Below are positions 6,207-19,744 of a DNA stretch of 64,000 nt, piece by piece; the stretch's first letter is position 1; each line of letters opens with the position of its first letter. The DNA comes from Candidatus Hydrogenedens sp. (GTDB lineage Bacteria; Hydrogenedentota; Hydrogenedentia; Hydrogenedentales; Hydrogenedentaceae). Where the stretch lies: the NCBI GenBank assembly GCA_049968235.1, contig JBMFRC010000006.1, positions 32,001-96,000 of the forward strand. Reading direction: 5' to 3'. Position numbers and translations under genes: made by a program. The notes beneath the pieces were generated by a model. The model ran no database searches, was not told the origin of the DNA, and saw only the letters and a list, made by a program, of their open reading frames with translations.

Positions 6207-7610
6207 TTATTTTTTTAGTTCTGGCAAACTTGCAGCTGCAATAGATTGTCCTACTCTTCTATTTTTTTCGTCCGGCAATTGGACATTAATTTTTTCATTT
6301 ATCTCAGGAAACTCTGTTTTTAATACTTTTAGACATTCTTCTAACATGATAGGACCTCCATTGCCGGAGGTACACCGTCCTAAAATGAGTACATGCTTTA
6401 TATCATAGAAATCATTGTAATGAGCAAGAGTATATCCCAAATAGGTACCCATAGTTTGCCAAATTTTAATAACTTCGGGATTCCCTTTTTCCAATTCTTC
6501 TTGTATTAGTTTCAATTTTTCTGCATCGGTGATATTTTCAGGAATTTTTATGCCTGCTTTCGGAGCAAGACGAAACACACATTGTTGAGAAAAATAATTG
6601 GCACCTACTCCCCTATCTCCTGACCATTCTTCTACGGGAGCATCGGGATTATAATCCACAGGGGCAAAGGCAAGTTCATTTAACCAATCTGTTATATTCC
6701 CTGCAGTGGTAACATAGCCACCCGCTTCACTGGAACCCATAGCAATTCCTAATACAGCATTGTCACCAATAGACATCGAACCTGCCAATGCTGTAACCTC
6801 TCCATCATTAACAACAACCAGCGGTACTCCCAGTTCTTTTGACATACGATTAAACAATTCATGCACCTCACCAAAACGTTCTTTAGGAACCCCTCTAAAT
6901 AATGATGCTATCATGGCACGATTATTGACATATACTCCAGCAGCACTTCCACCGACAGCATCCAATCTCGGCATTTTTGATGCGGCTGTTTTTATGGCTG
7001 TCATTATTTCATTATAGTGATAGTTGGGGTCTGTCTGTTTACGGGGTTCCCATATTGTCTCTTCGCTATATACCACTTCTCCATCTATGACAGCGGATGC
7101 TTTACGGTCAGAAGCACCTAAATCAAATCCGACACGACAACCATCCATGTGCCTACCCAAACGTTGTGATGTCTCGTTTGCATGAGGGACATCATTTTCC
7201 GATTTACATGGAACTATCGTAAATGGATTTTCATACACATCTTCTCCCATAAATTTATAGTCGAAGGCTCTCGCTCCTTGTAAAGAATAAGTTGCCTCTA
7301 AATAACGAATTAATGGTTTTGGAGCATAAACATATACCTTCCATCCTCCTTTTTGCCATAGTAAAAACTTTAATATTCTTTCTATATAATAAAATCCTGA
7401 TTCAAATAAAGGATGTCCTTCTGGAAATACTTCTGTCTCAAAACAAGATATAGAATTGTTTAACCTTTCTAAAGCAATAATAACTTTTACTGCATCTTTT
7501 GTTTCTTTCACTTTCTTTTTAAATTGGTCGTTTACTAATTTTGGTGGAATAAAACCGGGGTCCATAGGAGGAACTATTTGTGGTTTTACTAACATCCAAT
7601 CCAGATTCAT
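6207..7610 (-). CDS. ASKHA-superfamily sugar kinase (ROK/glucokinase-like, no zinc motif) with ~150-aa N-terminal extension
   Basis: Phosphate-1 motif GFDLGASD, VVVNDGEVTALAG, GIAMGSSEAGG, and adenosine motif ILGRCTSGNGG. It lacks the ROK CxCGxxGC motif. GGAGA RBS present. Confidence 0.55.
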   Translation of the reverse strand: MNLDWMLVKPQIVPPMDPGFIPPKLVNDQFKKKVKETKDAVKVIIALERLNNSISCFETEVFPEGHPLFESGFYYIERILKFLLWQKGGWKVYVYAPKPLIRYLEATYSLQGARAFDYKFMGEDVYENPFTIVPCKSENDVPHANETSQRLGRHMDGCRVGFDLGASDRKASAVIDGEVVYSEETIWEPRKQTDPNYHYNEIMTAIKTAASKMPRLDAVGGSAAGVYVNNRAMIASLFRGVPKERFGEVHELFNRMSKELGVPLVVVNDGEVTALAGSMSIGDNAVLGIAMGSSEAGGYVTTAGNITDWLNELAFAPVDYNPDAPVEEWSGDRGVGANYFSQQCVFRLAPKAGIKIPENITDAEKLKLIQEELEKGNPEVIKIWQTMGTYLGYTLAHYNDFYDIKHVLILGRCTSGNGGPIMLEECLKVLKTEFPEINEKINVQLPDEKNRRVGQSIAAASLPELKK

Positions 7611-10801: not shown

Positions 10802-10905
10802 AACACTACTCCCAAAAATCAATTAAAATAACAAATAATACAATAAAGGGGGTATTATAATAATTTCCATTCATATTATTCCATTAGAAATCCATATAAA
10901 TTGTA

Positions 10906-12324
10906 CTACACAACAAATAAGTTCTTTGTCATTCGATAAAGATAAATAGGAACATATCTTATAAGTGATAAAGGTCGGGGATAAATTTTTAGTAATCTGT
11001 AAATTCTATTTGGCCTTAAAAAGAACTGTCTATTTGCTTTTCGCTGGTAATAGAAAAGAACATCATCAGGTAAGTCAGTAAGATTAATTCTCACACCAGC
11101 AAAATCTATGTTCATATAATCAAAATTCTTCAATTTTTCCGGTTTATTTTGTTTAAGCCACTCAAATAATGGTGTTCCTGGGAAAGGTACCACCGTAAAA
11201 AAACTTGCAGTATGTAACATCGAATTTGTTGCAATATCTATTGTCATTTGAAGTTCTTCTTCTGTTTCTGTCGGGAAACCCATCATACAAAAGCCATTAG
11301 CATATACCCCTTTATTGACCATTATTTCTATTCCTTTTATAAATTTTGGAATATCAAGATTTTTACAGGTAAACTTTTGCATTCGTGGTGAACCTGTTTC
11401 TAAAGCAAAAGAAGACATATAAGTTCCTGCGGAGCATAAAGCCTCCGCAATATCTTCTGTAACTAAATCCCCTCTAATCGCATTGGGAAATGTTAATTTA
11501 ATATTTAATCCTTTTTGTCTCACTAATTCAGAAAATTGTATTACCCTCTGTTTGTTAAAATTAAAATTATCATCAAGAAATTCAAATTCATTAACACCAT
11601 ATTTGTGGTTTAACCATTCAATTTCTTCAATAATTCGTTCAGGTGAACAAAATCGTATCTTTTTCCCAAATATAGAATGACACCACATACACTGGTATGG
11701 ACAACCTCTACTAGTAACTAAACACATATACTTTCTTGGAGGTAAAGGGGTCATAGATTGTAAACCCCAGTATTGCTGTATATTAATTAAATCGTATTCA
11801 GGAAACGGAAGTTTATCCAAATCCGGTTCAACTGGTAATAACCCCGGATTTTCTATAACTTCCTCTGTTTCATCTTTCCATATTATCCCTGAAATATTTT
11901 TAAGATTCTTTTTATGTGGATAACTTTCCACGATTTGCTTAAATGCTATTTCACCTTCTCCTGGCACCACTATATCTAAATGCCTGCAGTCTGAAAAAGC
12001 CTGTACCTTTACAGATGAAGCATGTGGACCACCTAAAACAATCCAACAATTAGGAAGTGATTCTTTTATTTTTTCAGCGATTAGGGGTATCAAACCTGCA
12101 AAAACTGTAGATGATGATAAGCCAACAATATCCGGTAAAAACTGATATATTTCTTTTGTTAGTTCTTTAGGTGTATCATTTTTTACTTTTTGATTGATTA
12201 ATTTTATTTCTACATCTTTAATTTCCCTTTTTAAATAGCCTGCAAGATACATAATTCCCATAGGTGGTGTAGCCAATGGATACATCGGTTTCCTATACCC
12301 CAGATTTATCAATACTATCTTCAT
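10906..12324 (-). CDS. Cobalamin (B12)-binding domain radical SAM protein, copy 1
   Basis: N-terminal B12-binding domain. Radical SAM cluster motif SRGCPYQCMWCHS (Cx3Cx2C). The central ~373 residues are identical to the downstream paralog. Confidence 0.85.
   Translation of the reverse strand: MKIVLINLGYRKPMYPLATPPMGIMYLAGYLKREIKDVEIKLINQKVKNDTPKELTKEIYQFLPDIVGLSSSTVFAGLIPLIAEKIKESLPNCWIVLGGPHASSVKVQAFSDCRHLDIVVPGEGEIAFKQIVESYPHKKNLKNISGIIWKDETEEVIENPGLLPVEPDLDKLPFPEYDLINIQQYWGLQSMTPLPPRKYMCLVTSRGCPYQCMWCHSIFGKKIRFCSPERIIEEIEWLNHKYGVNEFEFLDDNFNFNKQRVIQFSELVRQKGLNIKLTFPNAIRGDLVTEDIAEALCSAGTYMSSFALETGSPRMQKFTCKNLDIPKFIKGIEIMVNKGVYANGFCMMGFPTETEEELQMTIDIATNSMLHTASFFTVVPFPGTPLFEWLKQNKPEKLKNFDYMNIDFAGVRINLTDLPDDVLFYYQRKANRQFFLRPNRIYRLLKIYPRPLSLIRYVPIYLYRMTKNLFVV
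11147..12267. repeat. Direct repeat unit 1 (1121 bp), near-identical to 12731..13851 (offset 1584 bp)
   Basis: Direct comparison of the two tracts shows identity apart from rare SNPs (e.g. 11386 T vs 12970 C). The identical embedded antisense ORFs 11483..11680 and 13067..13264 corroborate this. Confidence 0.9.
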
Positions 12325-12489
12325 TTATTCCTCATAAAGTATTCAATATATTTTATAACATTCTAAATAATATATTACTTCCTGAATAATTAAAATTATA
12401 TGCTTTTTTTTATAATAGTTAAGCACCACTATTTAGAATTGCTTCTTTATATAAGGATATGGTTCTAATATTGTATTACACTTTATGAT

Positions 12490-13914
12490 TTATTTTACAA
12501 TAATTCCTTTCAATAATCGCTGTAATAGCATAGGAAAATACATAGTAAGATGTAATGGATGAGGATAAATTTTGATAATTCTATATATTCTATCAGGTTT
12601 AGAGAAAAACTTTATGTATGCTCTCCGTTGATATTTATAAAATACTTCATCTGGAAGGTCTGTTAAATTAACTTTGATACTCCCATATTCTGCATTATTG
12701 TAATTTATATTTTTAACCTTATTCGGGCGATTTTGTTTAAGCCACTCAAATAATGGTGTTCCTGGGAAAGGTACCACCGTAAAAAAACTTGCAGTATGTA
12801 ACATCGAATTTGTTGCAATATCTATTGTCATTTGAAGTTCTTCTTCTGTTTCTGTCGGGAAACCCATCATACAAAAGCCATTAGCATATACCCCTTTATT
12901 GACCATTATTTCTATTCCTTTTATAAATTTTGGAATATCAAGATTTTTACAGGTAAACTTTTGCATTCGCGGTGAACCTGTTTCTAAAGCAAAAGAAGAC
13001 ATATAAGTTCCTGCGGAGCATAAAGCCTCCGCAATATCTTCTGTAACTAAATCCCCTCTAATCGCATTGGGAAATGTTAATTTAATATTTAATCCTTTTT
13101 GTCTCACTAATTCAGAAAATTGTATTACCCTCTGTTTGTTAAAATTAAAATTATCATCAAGAAATTCAAATTCATTAACACCATATTTGTGGTTTAACCA
13201 TTCAATTTCTTCAATAATTCGTTCAGGTGAACAAAATCGTATCTTTTTCCCAAATATAGAATGACACCACATACACTGGTATGGACAACCTCTACTAGTA
13301 ACTAAACACATATACTTTCTTGGAGGTAAAGGGGTCATAGATTGTAAACCCCAGTATTGCTGTATATTAATTAAATCGTATTCAGGAAACGGAAGTTTAT
13401 CCAAATCCGGTTCAACTGGTAATAACCCCGGATTTTCTATAACTTCCTCTGTTTCATCTTTCCATATTATCCCTGAAATATTTTTAAGATTCTTTTTATG
13501 TGGATAACTTTCCACGATTTGCTTAAATGCTATTTCACCTTCTCCTGGCACCACTATATCTAAATGCCTGCAGTCTGAAAAAGCCTGTACCTTTACAGAT
13601 GAAGCATGTGGACCACCTAAAACAATCCAACAATTAGGAAGTGATTCTTTTATTTTTTCAGCGATTAGGGGTATCAAACCTGCAAAAACTGTAGATGATG
13701 ATAAGCCAACAATATCCGGTAAAAACTGATATATTTCTTTTGTTAGTTCTTTAGGTGTATCATTTTTTACTTTTTGATTGATTAATTTTATTTCTACATC
13801 TTTAATTTCCCTTTTTAAATAGCCTGCAAGATACATAATTCCCATAGGTGGAGATATAACGCGATATAGGAAAGAACTCCTTCCCATATTTACTAATATT
13901 ATCCTACTTTTCAT
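12490..13914 (-). CDS. Cobalamin (B12)-binding domain radical SAM protein, copy 2
   Basis: Same motifs as copy 1. The N-terminal ~20 and C-terminal ~80 residues diverge while the core is identical. Confidence 0.85.
   Translation of the reverse strand: MKSRIILVNMGRSSFLYRVISPPMGIMYLAGYLKREIKDVEIKLINQKVKNDTPKELTKEIYQFLPDIVGLSSSTVFAGLIPLIAEKIKESLPNCWIVLGGPHASSVKVQAFSDCRHLDIVVPGEGEIAFKQIVESYPHKKNLKNISGIIWKDETEEVIENPGLLPVEPDLDKLPFPEYDLINIQQYWGLQSMTPLPPRKYMCLVTSRGCPYQCMWCHSIFGKKIRFCSPERIIEEIEWLNHKYGVNEFEFLDDNFNFNKQRVIQFSELVRQKGLNIKLTFPNAIRGDLVTEDIAEALCSAGTYMSSFALETGSPRMQKFTCKNLDIPKFIKGIEIMVNKGVYANGFCMMGFPTETEEELQMTIDIATNSMLHTASFFTVVPFPGTPLFEWLKQNRPNKVKNINYNNAEYGSIKVNLTDLPDEVFYKYQRRAYIKFFSKPDRIYRIIKIYPHPLHLTMYFPMLLQRLLKGIIVK
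12731..13851. repeat. Direct repeat unit 2 (1121 bp), near-identical to 11147..12267
   Basis: See unit 1. Confidence 0.9.
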
Positions 13915-13956
13915 AATAGAAATAATACTCCCTTATATTTTCCTAATTTTTTACCT

Positions 13957-16032
13957 TTACCTATTTAACAATACTTCTAAACTATCTCCTAAAGGGAAAA
14001 GGCAAGATTTATTCAATTTTTTACAATAATTATATATGTAACTTTTACTCCTATATTCTATCAATGGTTTAATAAATTTTTTTAATACCTCTTTTTCTTT
14101 ATATGCTATGGTAAGGTAATGTTCACAATCATCATTTTTTTTATTCATATAACAAATAATAGATTTCAACAAATATATGTCTCCAAATCGAGGATATTTA
14201 CTCAAAAGGTAATCACACATTTTGTCTGCAATATAATAATGTCCATCTTTTATTAATCCTGAAATTGTATAAATATTAATCCACGATAATATAGGCCAGG
14301 TAGCAATATATTTTTGAAGAATATATAGGTTTTCTCTTTTCGCTTTTTCGTTGTTCGAAACAATACCTATTTCATCCAATAATTTATCATAATTAATATT
14401 GTTTGTATTTATAAGGACATCACAGGTATTTTTTCCCACATTCCTAAAATTTTTTGCAACTTGACCTATATATAAATTATATTGACCCGGGTATACTTTC
14501 CAGTATACATCCAAACTATTATTATTAATACACTCTGTCAACTTAGCAATAGGGTCAGAATTATAAATAGCATATAATGTTATTGGCTCAATAACTATCC
14601 ATATCCTATTTTTTTCGTTTTCATTTAATTTTTCTTTTATTTCTTCCATTGCTCCGAATAAAGTAAAAAAAGATTGATATTTCAGGTCATTCCTTTTTAT
14701 ATAAATCTTATTTATATCCCAGAATGTGGTTGTTCTTTGTCCCAGAATAATGTCATTTAACCCTGCATTCGCCTCTATAAACTCCGTTGCATTTTTATAA
14801 TCCGTTCTATTCTTAAATGATATAAAACTAACACATTGTCCTAAATAAACAGACATTAAAAGAATTGCAAGAAAATATGACAGTATTTTAGGATTAAATT
14901 TAAAGATAATCGCAGAAGATATGATATAAATCAATGGTAAGGCATAGTAGTTATACAAAGGATGGAAAACAGGTTTATGGGTAATAACTACAATACTTAA
15001 TAATGATATAACGGGAACAAGTAAAGATAAAGTAATAAAAACTTCTCCCCTATTTTTTATATCCTTATTTTGTTTTATTTTCCATAAAATACTTAAAATA
15101 TAAATAATTGTTGTTATCACAAAAATTCCAAGAATGAAATAATCGAGAACAAATATTTTTCTTACCAATATACTTAAAATAAGGCTATCTATATTCAGGA
15201 TATTTGTCTTCCATGCAGGGATTAATTCCTCAGATATTCCAACACTATCAAAACCGAATAATCTATAAAATAATACTTTTATTTCAGTCCCTCCTCTACT
15301 GTCTATAACATTAAATAAAAATGGAGACATTTTGATATACCAAATTATCCATGGAATAACAGATAAAATGGACAGCACAGACCACAACATTTTTTTTCTT
15401 AGTAACGGTTTTGGAAAACTAAAAAGAAGTACAGGAATTTGGAACAATGGTGTTAGAACATATATCGCATGGAACCATGGCAAAATCAAATTGGAAATGA
15501 AACTAACAAGACACCACTTCCAGTTTTCTTTCTTATGGCTAAAATACATCCACAATCCTGAAAAAGAAAGAATAGCAAAAAATTGAATAAATGCATAACA
15601 TTTCAGTTCTTGATGAAACCATATATTAAAAGGAGATAAACAGAAAAGTAAACAGGCAAGGAAAGATGCTTTTCTTCCTACCAATAATTTTCCAAGAAAA
15701 TAGGTCGTTACAATTGCTAAAACACCAAAGGTTATGGGTAATACCCTCCATAACCAATCGATTTCTGGAAATAAATTTATCCAGTAATACAGAATAAAAG
15801 CAGAGGCAGGGGATATACCATAATCAGGACTATTGATATATAAAAGTCTAAAATAATCAAGTATATTACAAAATTTCGCATTACCAATGACTACATATTC
15901 ATCAAACCAAACCGATTGTTCATTTAATTTATATAAACGAAATATAAAGGAAAGAAAAATTATAACTATAATATATAATAAATCACTTTTAGTAAATTGT
16001 TCTCTGGCATTTTTAGTTTGATTCGTTTGCAT
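13957..16032 (-). CDS. GT-C fold membrane glycosyltransferase (ArnT/PMT_2-like, GT39/GT83-type) with C-terminal soluble TPR-like domain
   Basis: About 11 TM helices. FDEY acidic motif in the first extracytoplasmic loop, as in ArnT/PMT. Soluble C-terminal ~200 aa. Paralog of the next gene. Confidence 0.65.
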   Translation of the reverse strand: MQTNQTKNAREQFTKSDLLYIIVIIFLSFIFRLYKLNEQSVWFDEYVVIGNAKFCNILDYFRLLYINSPDYGISPASAFILYYWINLFPEIDWLWRVLPITFGVLAIVTTYFLGKLLVGRKASFLACLLFCLSPFNIWFHQELKCYAFIQFFAILSFSGLWMYFSHKKENWKWCLVSFISNLILPWFHAIYVLTPLFQIPVLLFSFPKPLLRKKMLWSVLSILSVIPWIIWYIKMSPFLFNVIDSRGGTEIKVLFYRLFGFDSVGISEELIPAWKTNILNIDSLILSILVRKIFVLDYFILGIFVITTIIYILSILWKIKQNKDIKNRGEVFITLSLLVPVISLLSIVVITHKPVFHPLYNYYALPLIYIISSAIIFKFNPKILSYFLAILLMSVYLGQCVSFISFKNRTDYKNATEFIEANAGLNDIILGQRTTTFWDINKIYIKRNDLKYQSFFTLFGAMEEIKEKLNENEKNRIWIVIEPITLYAIYNSDPIAKLTECINNNSLDVYWKVYPGQYNLYIGQVAKNFRNVGKNTCDVLINTNNINYDKLLDEIGIVSNNEKAKRENLYILQKYIATWPILSWINIYTISGLIKDGHYYIADKMCDYLLSKYPRFGDIYLLKSIICYMNKKNDDCEHYLTIAYKEKEVLKKFIKPLIEYRSKSYIYNYCKKLNKSCLFPLGDSLEVLLNR

Positions 16033-16036
16033 ATCA

Positions 16037-18130
16037 TTATCTATTTTTCAAAAGAACAGATAGTATGGATTTATTCAATATATGATAGCCCTTTTGTTCT
16101 AATTCTTGAATGAGCAACACATCCTTATCTCCTATTCCAGAGATATTTCCTCCGTTCCACAAGTTTTTATACATATCCTTAAAAATATAATTATTTCTAA
16201 AAATACCCTCTATTATTTTTCGGGATTCATCTTGTTTGTGTTTAGAAAATAAAATTAATCCTTTTAATAATATTACATGATAGAATTCCGGAGATTTATT
16301 TATAAGATAATCACATATTTTCTCTGCAACATCTATATCTCCATTCTGTATCATCGAATTTATAATTAAAATATAATTATATGAATAAAAAGGTTGCCAA
16401 ATAGCGAAGTATCTTTGAAGTATTTCTTTTCTTCGTTGCTTTTCTATCTCATCGTTAACTTTCATTTGAAACTCTTCTATAAGGTTATCATAATCTATTT
16501 CGCCAAAGGGGCAATTTTGAATCTTTTCTTTATTAATATTTTTGTAAGAGTCCTTCTCTATTCTTAAAACATAGAGGTTAAACTTTCCCGGGAAGTGTTT
16601 TATATTCACATTAAAACCATGAGGAGATAAATTCTTTACTAATATAAATGTTGGATCTTTCTTATAAATCCATGTAATTAATGTTGTTTCCATTAATACC
16701 CATATTGAGTTACTAATCTTTTCTTCCTCCAGTGAAAGTGTGTCAACTACTGTATCAGCAATAGCCTGCAAAGAAAATACAGGATTTAATGAGTAGTCAA
16801 CTCTTTTTTTGTATACCTTCCATGTGTCAAAAACATTGGCTCCTAATTGTAGGTCAAGAACGATATCTCCTTTTTTCACATTCTCTTCCATATATGCTAC
16901 TGCCCTTTTATAATCGGGTCTTAAATTAAAATTTATAAAACCTAAACATTGAAAGGTAAATAAAAAAATAATCATTACTAAAAAAGTGGCTTTAATTAGA
17001 TGTTTATCCCATATAAAAATAGAATACGCAATAATAAGGTATAGAAACGCAAAAGCATGATAGAAATATAAAGGTAGAAAAAATGATTTCCCTGTAATAA
17101 CTCTCAAAGTAAAAAAAGGAAGTATAGAAAAGACAAAAGAATAAAGTAGCAAATACTTTTTTATTTCTCCACACTCTTTTCGCAAATTTGGTATATTTTT
17201 TACCAAATATAAACAGAACACAATAAAAAGAAAAATAGTCGATATAAATAATAAATAGTCAATAAATACCCATTTGTTTAATAAATTATCCCATATTGTG
17301 TTTCTAACTATTTCGACTGTATTTGTTTTCCAATACGGTAATAATTCATTAGAAAGACCAACACAATCAATTCCGAATAAACTTGTCACAATAAATTTTA
17401 TATTTAATGATTCCATTTCAGTAAGAGAAAGATTATATGCAGGTGGTTTTATCCAGAATATCCACAAAATGTAAGGAATTAAAACGGCAATATTTGCTAT
17501 TCCACATAAGATAGTGTCCCTAACTTTATTCTGTCTTGTAAACCATATCAACAAAAAAAACTGTATAAATGGAACTGCAAAATATACAGCATGGAACCAG
17601 GGAAGCAATAAATTAGATAGTGTTCCTATAAAAAACCATTTCTTACTTTTGCCACTACTAATGTAATTTAGAAAGGCAAACCATGATAGTAAAGAAAGGA
17701 ATAGTATAAAAGCATATCCTTTCAGTTCCTGGTGAATATAAATGTTAAATGGTGATAATACCATCAATAACCCTGCAAGAAAGCCAACCTTCCAGTCTTT
17801 TACCCATTTCCCAAGAAAATAAAGAAGTACTATAGACAGAACTCCAAAGCAGATAGGTAAAAGCCTCCATAGCCAGATATTATCCGGAAAAATATGTATC
17901 CAAAAATAATATAGAACTAACCCTCCCGGTGAAATCCCATATTCAGGGACATTTATAAACAGTAATTTAATATTTGTCCACAAATCACATATTTTGATAT
18001 TTGCTATATATACATATTCTTCATGCCATATAGACTGTTCTGTAATACGGTATAATCGCAAAGCAAAAGCAATAAGAATTAGAATAATTAGGAGAAATAT
18101 ATCTCTGTATTTGGAAATGTAATCATTCAA
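16037..18130 (-). CDS. GT-C fold membrane glycosyltransferase (ArnT/PMT_2-like), paralog 2
   Basis: Same architecture (WHEEY loop motif, multi-TM, soluble C-terminal domain). TTG start with GGAG RBS. A 4-nt gap to the downstream paralog suggests co-transcription. Confidence 0.65.
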   Translation of the reverse strand: MNDYISKYRDIFLLIILILIAFALRLYRITEQSIWHEEYVYIANIKICDLWTNIKLLFINVPEYGISPGGLVLYYFWIHIFPDNIWLWRLLPICFGVLSIVLLYFLGKWVKDWKVGFLAGLLMVLSPFNIYIHQELKGYAFILFLSLLSWFAFLNYISSGKSKKWFFIGTLSNLLLPWFHAVYFAVPFIQFFLLIWFTRQNKVRDTILCGIANIAVLIPYILWIFWIKPPAYNLSLTEMESLNIKFIVTSLFGIDCVGLSNELLPYWKTNTVEIVRNTIWDNLLNKWVFIDYLLFISTIFLFIVFCLYLVKNIPNLRKECGEIKKYLLLYSFVFSILPFFTLRVITGKSFFLPLYFYHAFAFLYLIIAYSIFIWDKHLIKATFLVMIIFLFTFQCLGFINFNLRPDYKRAVAYMEENVKKGDIVLDLQLGANVFDTWKVYKKRVDYSLNPVFSLQAIADTVVDTLSLEEEKISNSIWVLMETTLITWIYKKDPTFILVKNLSPHGFNVNIKHFPGKFNLYVLRIEKDSYKNINKEKIQNCPFGEIDYDNLIEEFQMKVNDEIEKQRRKEILQRYFAIWQPFYSYNYILIINSMIQNGDIDVAEKICDYLINKSPEFYHVILLKGLILFSKHKQDESRKIIEGIFRNNYIFKDMYKNLWNGGNISGIGDKDVLLIQELEQKGYHILNKSILSVLLKNR

Positions 18131-18188: not shown

Positions 18189-19463
18189 TTAACCAATTTG
18201 AGCGAGGATTTTTGCCAATCTTCTTTCTGATTGTATGGCTGAACGGACAGTATGATAGTTAATTTTCCACGCATGAGCCATGTAATCCCATAACAGATTA
18301 TTATTTTCATCAAATAAGGGGAACCATTCCCCAACTGCATGATTAATCACATAATCCATAACAAAACGATGTACATTTTCATATGCATCAAAGTATTTTT
18401 CATCACCAAATAATAAATAAGCATCTAACATAGCCACAAGTGTTTCTGCCTGTTGCCAAAATTCTTTATTCCTTTCCCGTGCAGGGCCATCATTAGGTCC
18501 TTCACAATATACACCCCCTTTTTCCCAATCAATTCCGTATTTTAAACAATGGTCAAACATCTTCTTCATTTTTTCTTTATAAGGTTCTACATCTTCTCCA
18601 ATAATATTCAATGTATGATTTAACAACCAACAAAATTCTACATTATGACCGAAACTGGTATTATTTAATGGCCTCCCTTCCGGGTCATCTGCATCACGGT
18701 CAGAACCCCAAACATTTTTAAATATGATAGCCCGTAAAGGTTTCCAGTCAAAACTGAATTGTGCCATCCCTGTTCCATATTCCGGATGAACCATTTTATC
18801 GTAAATTAGTTTAATTACATTTAAGGTGTCCTGCTTATGTTTAAATGCACCTGTTGCTTCATACAAATTTGTAAAGGCTTCCATCAAATGCATGTGGACA
18901 TCAAATGACTTTCTATCACCACCATACACCCCTGGCTTTTTAGGCGTCCAATCTTTCTCAAAAAATTCGCCAAATCCTCCATGTGCAATATCTACAGCCT
19001 GAGCCTTAATTGTTCTCCATGTTTCTTCAGCAAGTTCAAGGGCTTCTTCATCACCTGATGCCATCGCATACTCACTCAAGCAATAAATACCAAAGGATTG
19101 ACCATACATAATTTTACTTGGGTCAACCGGTGTTCCATCTTTTTCCGTTATCCATATCCAGCCTCTATATTGATTATCCCAAAAATGTTTCTTTAAGAAT
19201 TCTACGCCTTGTTCTGCTATTTTCAGGTATTTCCCATCTCCTAAATTGGCTCGATGTGCAGATGAATAAGTATAAATCATCCGTGCCTGACAAATAAGTG
19301 TTTTTTTTGTCTCGCCTGTTGGTCGCCCTTCACGGTCAAGGTATGTTAAAAAGCCACCATATTCTTCATCAACACCATGCGTTTCCCAGAATGGAAGTAG
19401 TTCATTAAATAAGTGGTTTTGCATTTCTTTCAAAAGTTTTTCCACGCGTTCTTTTGTAACCAT
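18189..19463 (-). CDS. N-acylglucosamine 2-epimerase (AGE) family protein (cellobiose 2-epimerase / sugar isomerase-like, alpha6/alpha6 barrel)
   Basis: LPFWETHGVDEEYGGF is the typical AGE-family N-terminal motif. Length 424 aa. AAGGA RBS. Confidence 0.7.
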   Translation of the reverse strand: MVTKERVEKLLKEMQNHLFNELLPFWETHGVDEEYGGFLTYLDREGRPTGETKKTLICQARMIYTYSSAHRANLGDGKYLKIAEQGVEFLKKHFWDNQYRGWIWITEKDGTPVDPSKIMYGQSFGIYCLSEYAMASGDEEALELAEETWRTIKAQAVDIAHGGFGEFFEKDWTPKKPGVYGGDRKSFDVHMHLMEAFTNLYEATGAFKHKQDTLNVIKLIYDKMVHPEYGTGMAQFSFDWKPLRAIIFKNVWGSDRDADDPEGRPLNNTSFGHNVEFCWLLNHTLNIIGEDVEPYKEKMKKMFDHCLKYGIDWEKGGVYCEGPNDGPARERNKEFWQQAETLVAMLDAYLLFGDEKYFDAYENVHRFVMDYVINHAVGEWFPLFDENNNLLWDYMAHAWKINYHTVRSAIQSERRLAKILAQIG

Positions 19464-19667: not shown

Positions 19668-19744
19668 GTTCCCGTAGCTCAATTGGATAGAGCGCTTGGC
19701 TACGGACCAAGAGGCTGGGGGTTCAACTCCCTCCGGGAACGCCA
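19668..19744 (+). tRNA. tRNA-Arg (anticodon ACG)
   Basis: Cloverleaf folded by hand: acceptor GTTCCCG/CGGGAAC, D-arm GCTC-AATTGGATA-GAGC, anticodon stem CTTGG/CCAAG with loop CTACGGA (anticodon ACG), T-arm GGGGG-TTCAACT-CCCTC, discriminator G, encoded CCA. Confidence 0.9.

What the first reader, a model, noticed from the sequence alone, without database searches (positions are those of the whole stretch)
11147..13851. Two tandem B12-binding radical SAM genes share a 1121-bp near-identical DNA core with divergent ends
Tracts 11147..12267 and 12731..13851 (offset 1584 bp) match except for rare SNPs, e.g. 11386 vs 12970. The encoded proteins are identical over ~373 residues. Their N-terminal ~20 and C-terminal ~80 residues differ substantially. 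Either a very recent duplication has already diversified at the termini, or ongoing gene conversion homogenises only the catalytic core while the ends (substrate recognition or partner docking?) are kept distinct. The same pattern could also be an assembly collapse artefact, so it needs read-level validation.
Basis: seen in the sequence. Interest (0 to 1): 0.6.

Follow-up and report, generated by a model that had tools for sequence, protein, structure and literature searches.

The report
Gene conversion between tandem radical-SAM paralogues
Two neighbouring, anciently duplicated cobalamin-type radical SAM enzyme genes in an uncultured Hydrogenedens bacterium share an identical 1.1-kb middle because one copy's middle was recently pasted over the other's: a clean but ordinary case of gene conversion, not a new duplication.

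Summary
Window 11146-12267 and 12730-13851 (offset 1584) are identical over 1122 bp except for one synonymous SNP. The proteins (A, 472 aa; B, 474 aa; minus strand) are identical over 374 residues. They differ in the first 19/21 residues and the last 79.

Related genomes settle the history. Three related Hydrogenedens lineages carry the same tandem pair, but there the copies are only 66-71% identical along the whole gene. In the window, both cores are of the downstream (A) type. B's two ends are orthologous to the upstream (B) type of the sister species. So a single recent A-to-B gene conversion overwrote both cofactor domains of B. Core dS is 0.004, against 0.43 for the species split.

The tract runs from the first to just past the last patch of appreciable homology between the paralogues. 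Its ends therefore need no selective explanation.

A recent duplication is refuted. Ongoing concerted evolution is not supported. An assembly artefact is unlikely but not excluded without reads. Two sister-strain MAGs show a single B-5'/A-3' hybrid gene, either a collapse or a true deletion between the new repeats.

The enzymes belong to an uncharacterised class-B radical SAM subfamily, usually next to GT-C (PMT_2-like) membrane glycosyltransferases.

The parts
10906..12324 (-). Gene A (472 aa): downstream, conserved 'A-type' cobalamin-domain radical SAM gene. It is the donor of the converted tract.
   Evidence: ORF. PF02310 and PF04055 hits. A-type along its whole length at paralogue-diagnostic sites: 0u/9d at the 5' end, 6u/53d in the core, 3u/19d at the 3' end. 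90% aa identity to the L003 downstream copy. Identical to NCBI protein MGC8738152.1.
12490..13914 (-). Gene B (474 aa): upstream paralogue, now a chimera of B-type ends and an A-type core. It is the recipient.
   Evidence: ORF intact. Diagnostic sites are 7u/0d at the 5' end, 6u/53d in the core and 21u/1d at the 3' end; Fisher p = 5e-16. Identical to NCBI protein MGC8738153.1.
11146..12267 (-). Donor copy of the 1122-bp tract (codons 20-393 of A). It covers the B12-binding Rossmann domain and the whole radical SAM barrel, including the CPYQCMWC cluster motif.
   Evidence: identity block; AF2 domain layout; C208, C212 and C215 invariant.
12730..13851 (-). Recipient copy of the tract in B (codons 22-395 of B).
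   Evidence: About 90% identical to the L003 downstream copy but only about 72% to the L003 upstream copy, which is its positional orthologue.
13852..13914 (-). B's own 5' end (21 codons), B-type. The 5' junction lies in the CCACCTATGGG (PPMG) patch.
   Evidence: The last B-type diagnostic codon is TCT; the next bases, CCA CCT ATG GGA, are shared with A.
12490..12729 (-). B's own 3' end (79 codons plus stop), B-type. It encodes a loop and a three-helix C-terminal subdomain.
   Evidence: 84% aa identity to L003up against 48% to A. dN/dS 0.12 against L003up. Family-invariant residues retained. Helices 420-465 in the model of A.
12325..12489 (-). 165-bp B-A intergenic spacer. With B's 3' end and A's first 19 codons it forms the 463-bp unique segment 'Y' between the repeats. 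It contains a promoter-like site (-35 TTAACT / -10 TATAAT, 12422..12395).
   Evidence: Alignable with the sister-species spacer (71-77% identity). The promoter is a consensus match only.
11386..11386 (-). The only difference between the two tracts (paired with 12970): A has the ancestral CCA, B has the derived CCG (Pro). This is a post-conversion mutation in B.
13957..18130 (-). Two paralogous membrane proteins of about 690 aa (GT-C / PMT_2-like) directly upstream in the same operon (13957-16032 and 16037-18130). They are likely functional partners of the radical SAM enzymes.
   Evidence: Weak PMT_2 hits. 36% identical to each other. Homologues next to family members in other phyla score above the PMT_2 cut-off. 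Adjacency holds for 22 of 31 family genes.

Best explanation
A and B are an old tandem pair of cobalamin-domain (class B) radical SAM genes. They sit in an operon with two GT-C-type membrane glycosyltransferase-like genes. The duplication predates the split of at least four Hydrogenedens lineages, and the paralogues had diverged to about 70% DNA identity.

In the lineage of this window, one recent non-reciprocal recombination event (interlocus gene conversion) copied about 1.12 kb from the downstream gene A into the upstream gene B. This replaced roughly 300 nucleotide and 100 amino-acid differences at a stroke. It gave B the B12-binding domain and radical SAM barrel of A. B kept its own first 21 codons and its last 79 codons (the C-terminal helical subdomain).

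The tract starts at the first short identity patch between the paralogues (PPMG codons). It ends just after the last ones (end of the barrel, EWLKQN codons). Beyond those points the copies were too diverged to pair. The likely mechanism, which is inferred and not shown, is gap repair, synthesis-dependent strand annealing or template switching anchored on those patches. Two successive unequal crossovers at the same patches would give the same product.

One synonymous mutation has since arisen in B. The event created a 1.1-kb perfect direct repeat. That repeat makes the locus prone to RecA-mediated deletion, and to collapse in short-read assemblies. The expected product is a single gene with B's 5' end and A's 3' end, and this is what two sister-strain MAGs show.

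The enzymatic role is inferred only. It is probably a cobalamin/radical SAM modification (likely C-methylation) of a glycan or lipid-linked sugar handled by the adjacent GT-C proteins.
For: Shown:
- 1122 bp are identical but for one synonymous SNP.
- The tandem pair is present in L003-L006, L032 and L009, with 66-71% identity throughout, longest exact runs of 18-23 nt and no homogenised tract.
- The more distant L010 has a single copy in the same synteny.
- In the window, both cores are 90% aa identical to the L003 downstream copy and 73% to the L003 upstream copy. B's C-terminus is 84% identical to L003up and 48-49% to A-type copies.
- Diagnostic sites in B are 7u/0d, then 6u/53d, then 21u/1d. 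A is d-type throughout. Fisher p = 5e-16, and 1e-32 with L003 alone.
- Core dS between A and B is 0.004, against 0.43 for A versus its L003 orthologue. Paralogue pS is 0.64-0.80.
- The tract begins exactly at the first run of 11 nt or more shared by the L003 pair. It ends after the last such runs (17-18 nt).
- The chimeric 5' junction (B 5' end joined to an A-type core) is also present in two other assemblies, L001 and L002.
- Both ORFs are intact and family-invariant residues are retained.
- The tract covers both cofactor domains of a confident AF2 model (pLDDT 94.5).
Against: - The two-copy form is seen in one assembly only. The 15-billion-protein collection holds A and B once each, on one 171,865-bp contig.
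- Two JGI-metagenome scans for junction sequences found nothing.
- Two sister-strain MAGs show only one hybrid gene.
- No reads were available.
- Recombination between sequences diverged by about 28%, with shared runs of at most about 20 nt, is expected to be very rare. Recombination rates fall exponentially with divergence (PMC12046097).
- The first codon after the tract is odd. B has CGC, the A-type state in L003dn and L009dn, while A has AAA.
Confidence: 0.85

Rival explanations
1. Very recent tandem duplication of one gene, followed by rapid divergence of only the terminal codons.
For: Near-identity of the cores.
Against: B's termini are not new. They are orthologous to the upstream paralogue of L003, L032 and L009 (C-terminus 84%, 65% and similar aa identity). 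They evolve under purifying selection (dN/dS 0.12, dS 0.67 against L003up). Terminal divergence between A and B is saturated at synonymous sites (pS 0.75) while the core has dS 0.004. The 463-bp spacer is alignable with the sister species.
Confidence: 0.01
2. Ongoing concerted evolution: repeated gene conversion keeps the catalytic core homogeneous in this family, while selection keeps the ends (substrate or partner recognition) distinct.
For: Conversion did occur. The unconverted C-terminal subdomain is under purifying selection as a distinct B-type module. Paralogue cores are somewhat more alike than the ends in every lineage (73% vs 49-57% aa).
Against: None of the eight other tandem or nearby pairs (L003, L032, L009, L014, L016, L020, L021, L027) has a tract; longest exact runs are 17-32 nt. 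Core synonymous sites between paralogues are near saturation in the sister lineages. The tract ends coincide with the limits of usable homology, which explains them without selection. The upstream copy carries a frameshift allele in two assemblies of the sister species, so it is not under strict constraint.
Confidence: 0.07
3. Assembly artefact: the true genome has either one hybrid gene (as in L001/L002) or a divergent B core. The second identical core would then have been created by mis-assembly, gap filling or polishing.
For: The source is a metagenome-assembled genome. The two-copy form occurs in one assembly only. Two sister MAGs carry one copy. There is no independent junction match in JGI metagenomes.
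Against: Assemblers collapse repeats rather than invent them. The segment Y (B-type 3' end, spacer, A-type 5' end) is real DNA, orthologous to the sister species, and it must be flanked by a core on each side. A false core-to-Y join would need overlap, but the shared patch there is only 18 nt, below usual k-mer sizes. No divergent B-type core exists in the window. The two copies differ by a phased SNP with the ancestral state in A. The chimeric 5' junction recurs in two other assemblies. The assembler-behaviour argument rests on general knowledge, not on a test.
Confidence: 0.06
4. Same end product by a different route: two successive unequal homeologous crossovers instead of one conversion event. 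First a triplication intermediate (B, an A/B chimera, A) forms by crossover at the EWLKQN patch. Then the B core plus Y is deleted by crossover at the PPMG patch.
For: It needs the same two junctions as conversion. Unequal exchange at this locus may be seen in L001/L002.
Against: It requires two rare homeologous events and a transient three-copy state for which there is no trace. It cannot be distinguished from conversion using the present sequence.
Confidence: 0.1

Closest known systems
Interlocus gene conversion between bacterial paralogues, e.g. tufA/tufB in Salmonella (own knowledge) and PE_PGRS27/28 and PPE18/19 in Mycobacterium tuberculosis (PMC12046097)
   Same: Non-reciprocal copying of a tract from a source gene into a paralogous target gives a mosaic target with two exact copies of the tract in one genome and one in unconverted relatives. 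The diagnostic logic is the same as in PMC12046097. The donor is unchanged.
   Different: The known bacterial cases involve close paralogues. PMC12046097 states that all MTBC examples involve closely related genes. Here donor and recipient were about 28% diverged, with shared runs of at most about 20 nt. The tract spans almost the whole alignable part of the gene. Recurrence is not seen in eight other pairs.
Cassette-type gene conversion in antigenic variation (Neisseria pilE/pilS, Borrelia vlsE; own knowledge)
   Same: Conversion of a divergent segment anchored on short conserved flanking patches. It sits next to a hypervariable, probably surface-related gene block.
   Different: There are no silent cassette archive, no repeated switching and no dedicated recombination signals. 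The target is a cytoplasmic-type cofactor enzyme, and the variable parts (the ends) are what is not converted.
Cobalamin-dependent (class B) radical SAM enzymes with solved structures: MgmA, AprD4, OxsB, CysS, TsrM, TokK
   Same: N-terminal Rossmann-like B12-binding domain, a CxxxCxxC radical SAM barrel and a C-terminal subdomain. Foldseek E-values are 1e-19 to 1e-21 with TM 0.64-0.73. Sequence hits have E-values of 1e-13 to 6e-05.
   Different: Sequence identity is only 17-21%. No NCBIfam equivalog is reached (best are ApyD 164/750, BchE 142/481, HpnJ 121/578 bits). The substrate is unknown. The conserved neighbour is a GT-C/PMT_2-like membrane protein, which is not the context of any of these enzymes.
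Repeat-mediated deletion or short-read collapse of tandem duplicates
   Same: The single hybrid gene in L001/L002 (B 5' end, core, A 3' end; exactly 1584 bp shorter) is the product expected from recombination between, or collapse of, the two 1122-bp repeats.
   Different: Which of the two it is cannot be decided without reads.

Membership tests
Interlocus (ectopic) gene conversion | Within a tract, paralogues in one genome are more alike than each is to its orthologue; outside the tract, orthology is retained. | tested here: met
   Core: A vs B is 100% aa identical, while B vs its positional orthologue L003up is 73%. C-terminus: B vs L003up is 84%, while B vs A is 48%. Diagnostic sites give Fisher p = 5e-16.
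Interlocus (ectopic) gene conversion | Non-reciprocal: the donor keeps its own sequence and direction can be assigned. | tested here: met
   A is A-type along its whole length, and both cores are A-type. One codion-level oddity remains at the 3' edge: codon 394 is AAA in A and CGC in B.
Interlocus (ectopic) gene conversion | Unconverted relatives carry the tract once (source only). | tested here: met
   The L003, L032 and L009 pairs show no shared tract; longest exact runs are 18-23 nt.
Interlocus (ectopic) gene conversion | Both copies physically present in one molecule (not an assembly product). | not testable with these tools
   No reads were available. Indirect arguments only.
Concerted evolution (recurrent homogenisation) | Independent or repeated homogenisation of the paralogues in several lineages. 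| tested here: not met
   Eight other pairs lack any tract. Paralogue synonymous sites are saturated in the sister lineages.
Class B (cobalamin-binding-domain) radical SAM enzymes | N-terminal B12-binding domain plus a radical SAM domain with a CxxxCxxC motif. | tested here: met
   PF02310 scores 53 bits (cut-off 32) and PF04055 scores 65 bits (cut-off 29.5). C208, C212 and C215 are invariant in 68 homologues.
Class B (cobalamin-binding-domain) radical SAM enzymes | Fold shared with solved members. | tested here: met
   AF2 model with pLDDT 94.5. The top PDB matches are MgmA, AprD4, OxsB, CysS, TsrM and TokK.
Class B (cobalamin-binding-domain) radical SAM enzymes | Actual cobalamin binding and methyl-transfer chemistry. 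| not testable with these tools
   AprD4, a close structural neighbour, is a B12-domain enzyme that is a dehydratase (title of 6fd2). The chemistry therefore cannot be read from the fold.
BchE (anaerobic Mg-protoporphyrin IX monomethyl ester cyclase), the name JGI gives to several homologues | Score at or above the TIGR02026 cut-off. | tested here: not met
   141.9 bits (A) and 139.1 bits (B) against a cut-off of 481.35. There is no photosynthesis context.
RiPP-maturing radical SAM (ApyD, rSAM_ocin_1) | Score at or above the family cut-off, with a precursor peptide gene nearby. | tested here: not met
   ApyD scores 164-165 bits against 750; TIGR03975 scores 76.5 against 282. The 165-bp B-A spacer holds no plausible peptide ORF.

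The most novel reading that the evidence does not exclude
The chimera may be a natural domain swap that the cell tolerates because the two cofactor domains are interchangeable. On this reading, the first beta-strand and the C-terminal three-helix subdomain form the specificity or docking module that pairs each radical SAM enzyme with its own fast-evolving GT-C membrane glycosyltransferase. The radical SAM plus GT-C pair, conserved from Hydrogenedentota to Planctomycetota, would then be an undescribed envelope-glycan (or lipid-linked sugar) modification system. Its diversification would proceed by cassette replacement of the GT-C genes and by recombination among the radical SAM genes.
Probability: 0.12. 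Interest if true: 0.6.

Novelty: new member of a known kind. Interest (0 to 1): 0.33.

Why it matters
The finding has four uses.

- It is a clean, well-polarised example of gene conversion in an uncultured bacterium. Donor, recipient, both junctions and relative age are all defined. The paralogues were far more diverged (about 28%) than in the usual bacterial cases.
- It is a warning for annotation, phylogeny and selection tests on this radical SAM family. B would be misplaced as an A-type gene, and ~100 amino-acid changes arrived in a single event.
- It shows how MAG assemblies of one strain can disagree. One has two genes and the others have one hybrid, exactly where a fresh repeat has arisen.
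- The chimera, the unconverted sister-species pair and the conserved GT-C neighbour give a ready-made experiment. It would test which parts of these uncharacterised enzymes carry specificity.

None of this changes current understanding of recombination or of radical SAM enzymology.

Tried and rejected
- Exact look-ups of A, B and P0121 in the contig index found nothing on record. The source was instead identified through cluster membership.
- Two JGI-metagenome scans were run, one for the core/B-3' junction and one for the B-5'/core junction. Both gave 0 hits, so there is no independent assembly of this strain there.
- Literature searches for Hydrogenedens plus radical SAM, for radical SAM plus PMT_2, and for the source study of the MAGs gave nothing relevant.
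- A RiPP reading (top NCBIfam hit ApyD) was rejected. Scores are far below the cut-off and the spacer holds no precursor ORF.
- A BchE reading (JGI names of homologues) was rejected on score and context.
- Mobile-element and other repeat explanations were rejected. There is no other repeat in the window, no significant inverted repeats and no relevant Rfam hits.
- Intrinsic terminators in the spacer were sought. The only terminator-like hits lie inside the duplicated core on the opposite strand.
- The GT-C proteins have no sequence relative in the PDB.
- I considered that the one-copy hybrid might be ancestral to the two-copy form. This was rejected because segment Y cannot be regenerated from a hybrid and is alignable with the sister species.
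Full report

Comparing the window with itself at an offset of 1584 bases shows that 11147..12267 equals 12731..13851 with a single mismatch (11386 T / 12970 C). Identity actually begins one base earlier, so the tract is 1122 bp (11146-12267 and 12730-13851). Outside it, identity at this offset drops at once to roughly 55-65% on the 3' coding side and to 27-42% on the 5' side and in intergenic DNA. This is the only long repeat in the 64-kb window.

Both genes are on the minus strand. A is 10906-12324 (472 aa, downstream). B is 12490-13914 (474 aa, upstream). Each carries a B12-binding domain (PF02310) and a radical SAM domain (PF04055) above Pfam's cut-offs. The proteins are identical over 374 residues (A 20-393). 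The first 19/21 residues are 26% identical and the last 79 are 48% identical. The SNP is synonymous, Pro CCA in A and CCG in B. Relatives show that A keeps the ancestral base.

**Source and setting**

A and B are identical to NCBI proteins MGC8738152.1 and MGC8738153.1. These lie next to each other on a 171,865-bp contig of a 'Candidatus Hydrogenedens sp.' MAG.

The minus-strand gene row runs as follows:
- an AGE-family 2-epimerase (18189-19463);
- two paralogous membrane proteins of about 690 aa with weak PMT_2 (GT-C glycosyltransferase) matches (16037-18130 and 13957-16032);
- B, then A;
- indolepyruvate oxidoreductase IorA and IorB;
- a ROK kinase;
- a 467-aa protein.

tRNA-Arg and clpX lie beyond the epimerase on the other strand.

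**What relatives show**

A sister species (L003-L006, several independent assemblies) has the same synteny and the same tandem pair (475 and 472 aa). So do L032 (GCA_900175155.1) and Ca. Hydrogenedens terephthalaticus (L009). A more distant relative (L010) has one copy between the two GT-C genes and iorA.

In all three two-copy relatives, the copies are 66-71% identical in DNA along the whole gene. Their longest exact runs are 18-23 nt, and no homogenised stretch is present. Synonymous differences between the paralogues are near saturation (pS 0.64-0.80). The duplication is therefore old.

**Polarity of the event**

In the window, both cores resemble the downstream (A-type) gene of L003 (90% aa). 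They do not resemble the upstream (B-type) gene (73%). B's C-terminal 79 residues are 84% identical to the L003 upstream gene but only 48-49% to A-type genes.

I used sites that distinguish upstream from downstream copies in both L003 and L032. At those sites:

| Gene | 5' end | Core | 3' end |
|---|---|---|---|
| B | 7 up / 0 down | 6 up / 53 down | 21 up / 1 down |
| A | 0 up / 9 down | 6 up / 53 down | 3 up / 19 down |

A is thus downstream-type throughout. Fisher's test of core against ends in B gives p = 5e-16, and 1e-32 with L003 alone. B is a chimera and A was the donor.

Core dS between A and B is 0.004. For A against its L003 orthologue it is 0.43. The event therefore dates to about 1% of the time since the species split.

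**Junctions**

The 5' junction lies in CCA CCT ATG GGA (the PPMG motif). The 3' junction follows GAG TGG CTT AAA CAA AAT (EWLKQN).

Taking the L003 pair as a proxy for the pre-conversion state, the tract begins at the first shared run of 11 nt or more in the gene. It ends just after the last such runs, patches of 17-18 nt. No shared run of that length exists further out. The ends are therefore explained by where pairing was possible, and selection for distinct termini need not be invoked.

How a 1.1-kb tract was copied across about 28% divergence is inferred, not shown. Candidates are gap repair, synthesis-dependent strand annealing or template switching anchored on those patches. Two successive unequal crossovers at the same patches would give the same product. 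Recombination frequency is known to fall exponentially with divergence, and the bacterial examples described involve close paralogues (PMC12046097, read). In that one respect this event is unusual.

One detail is unexplained. In the first codon after the tract, B has CGC, which is the A-type state in L003 and L009. A itself has AAA.

**Structure**

An AlphaFold2 model of A, built on 68 homologues, is confident (pLDDT 94.5, pTM 0.92). It shows:
- a Rossmann-like domain (about 1-145);
- a radical SAM barrel (about 200-393) with the invariant C208/C212/C215 motif;
- a loop (394-419);
- three C-terminal helices (420-465).

The converted tract (residues 20-393) is thus both cofactor domains in full. 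What B retains of its own is the first beta-strand region and the C-terminal subdomain.

The best PDB fold matches are MgmA, AprD4, OxsB, CysS, TsrM and TokK, at 17-21% identity. No NCBIfam equivalog is reached. ApyD, BchE, HpnJ and the others all fall far below their cut-offs. The JGI name 'BchE' attached to homologues is therefore not supported.

**Is B a working gene?**

Across species, the B-type gene evolves under purifying selection. Core dN/dS is about 0.10-0.15, though dS is saturated, so this is approximate. For the C-terminus of window B against L003up, dN/dS is 0.12 with dS 0.67. Window B keeps the family-invariant C-terminal residues.

On the other hand, two independent ENA assemblies of the sister species (L007, L033) share a 1-bp deletion (TATAATTAT to TATATTAT) that frameshifts the B-type gene. 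The upstream copy is therefore dispensable in at least some populations. Whether the window's chimera is adaptive, neutral or mildly harmful cannot be told. The event is too recent for selection to have left a trace.

**The one-copy form**

Two other MAGs from the same NCBI accession series carry a single 474-aa gene on 7.7-kb and 7.0-kb contigs (L001 from GCA_049969095.1 and L002 from GCA_049971155.1). This gene has B's 5' end, the core and A's 3' end. The two contigs are identical to the window apart from the missing 1584 bp and two shared SNPs in iorA (window 9813 and 9455).

This is the product expected either from recombination between the two new repeats or from an assembler skipping the loop. 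The 463-bp segment Y would fall below the usual contig-length cut-offs. Reads are needed to decide.

The one-copy form cannot be ancestral to the two-copy form. Y, which consists of the B-type 3' end, the spacer and the A-type 5' end, aligns with the sister species (71-85% identity) and could not be regenerated from a hybrid.

**Artefact check for the two-copy form**

The points against an artefact are these:
- Collapse removes copies and does not add them.
- Y is genuine orthologous DNA that must have a core on each side.
- The patch shared at the core/Y junction is 18 nt, shorter than usual assembly k-mers. This rests on general knowledge of assemblers.
- No divergent B-type core exists in the window.
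- The copies differ by one phased SNP.
- The chimeric 5' junction recurs in two other assemblies.

The points for an artefact are these:
- Only one assembly shows two copies.
- The JGI scans found no further instance.

I put the artefact at about 6%.

**Wider context, noticed while working**

Between the window and L003, the epimerase, ClpX and IorA are 92-97% identical in protein. The two GT-C proteins are only 57% identical. GC content also dips to 27-29% over the GT-C genes. This looks like a replaceable cassette.

L003 additionally has a 6-kb insertion between A and iorA. It carries a third GT-C gene, a distant B12/radical SAM gene (524 aa) and a sulfatase-family gene.

Across 24 loci from Hydrogenedentota and Planctomycetota, 22 of 31 genes of this radical SAM family sit next to a GT-C gene on the same strand. 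This is by a crude ORF call that undercounts in high-GC loci. Nine of ten such neighbours tested match PMT_2, seven of them above its cut-off. I found no paper on this pairing.

The suggestion that the enzymes modify a glycan or lipid-linked sugar handled by the GT-C proteins is an inference from this adjacency. It also draws on the epimerase and sugar-kinase neighbours.

**Verdict**

'Ongoing' conversion and selection-bounded ends are unsupported. The artefact is unlikely but untested at read level.

This is a new instance of a well-known process in an uncharacterised subfamily of a known enzyme class. It is of modest interest. Its main points are the high donor-recipient divergence, the natural domain-swap chimera it produced, and the disagreement it causes between MAG assemblies.

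Noticed in passing
window 13957-18130 (compare L003 2157-6363): The two GT-C/PMT_2-like membrane protein genes are hypervariable. They are 57% aa identical between the window and the sister species, while the flanking epimerase, ClpX and IorA are 92-97% identical. GC content dips to 27-29% here. This looks like cassette replacement, as in surface-glycan loci.
   Followed up: partly
L011-L029 and window 10906-18130: Genes of this radical SAM subfamily are usually adjacent, on the same strand, to a PMT_2/GT-C membrane protein of about 650-750 aa. This holds in both Hydrogenedentota and Planctomycetota (22 of 31 genes; 9 of 10 neighbours tested hit PMT_2). No literature on this pairing was found.
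   Followed up: partly
L003 9521-15384 (corresponds to window 10823-10905): The sister species has a 6-kb insertion between gene A and iorA, on the opposite strand. It carries a third GT-C (698 aa, with TPR hints), a distant B12/radical SAM gene (524 aa, 29% identical to A) and a sulfatase-family protein (672 aa). It is absent from the window, L009 and L010.
   Followed up: partly
L007 about 335 and L033 about 4075 (nt ~236 of the upstream radical SAM gene): Two independent ENA assemblies of the sister species share a 1-bp deletion (TATAATTAT to TATATTAT) that frameshifts the B-type paralogue. The gene is intact in L003-L006.
   Followed up: yes
L001 2539-3963; L002 587-2011: Two sister-strain MAGs (two shared SNPs against the window, at window 9813 and 9455) carry one hybrid gene (B 5' end, core, A 3' end), exactly 1584 bp shorter than the window locus. 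This is either assembly collapse or a real deletion between the new repeats.
   Followed up: partly
window 11143-11145 and 12727-12729: In the first codon after the identical tract, B has CGC, the A-type state in L003 and L009, whereas A has AAA. A three-base difference at the tract edge does not fit a simple one-way copy followed by a single SNP.
   Followed up: no
window 19668-19744: tRNA-Arg(ACG) lies on the plus strand between the divergently oriented epimerase operon and clpX. It is the only RNA gene found in the window.
   Followed up: no
homologues P0041, P0052, P0073 and others: JGI names several homologues 'anaerobic magnesium-protoporphyrin IX monomethyl ester cyclase' (BchE) or 'YgiQ'. 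The window proteins score 139-142 bits against the BchE model's 481-bit cut-off, so these names are probably over-annotations.
   Followed up: partly
window 6207-7610: The 467-aa protein at the end of the operon has only a sub-threshold ROK-like match (20.7 bits against 22.9). It is conserved in synteny in L009 and L010 (84-92% aa). Its function is unknown.
   Followed up: no
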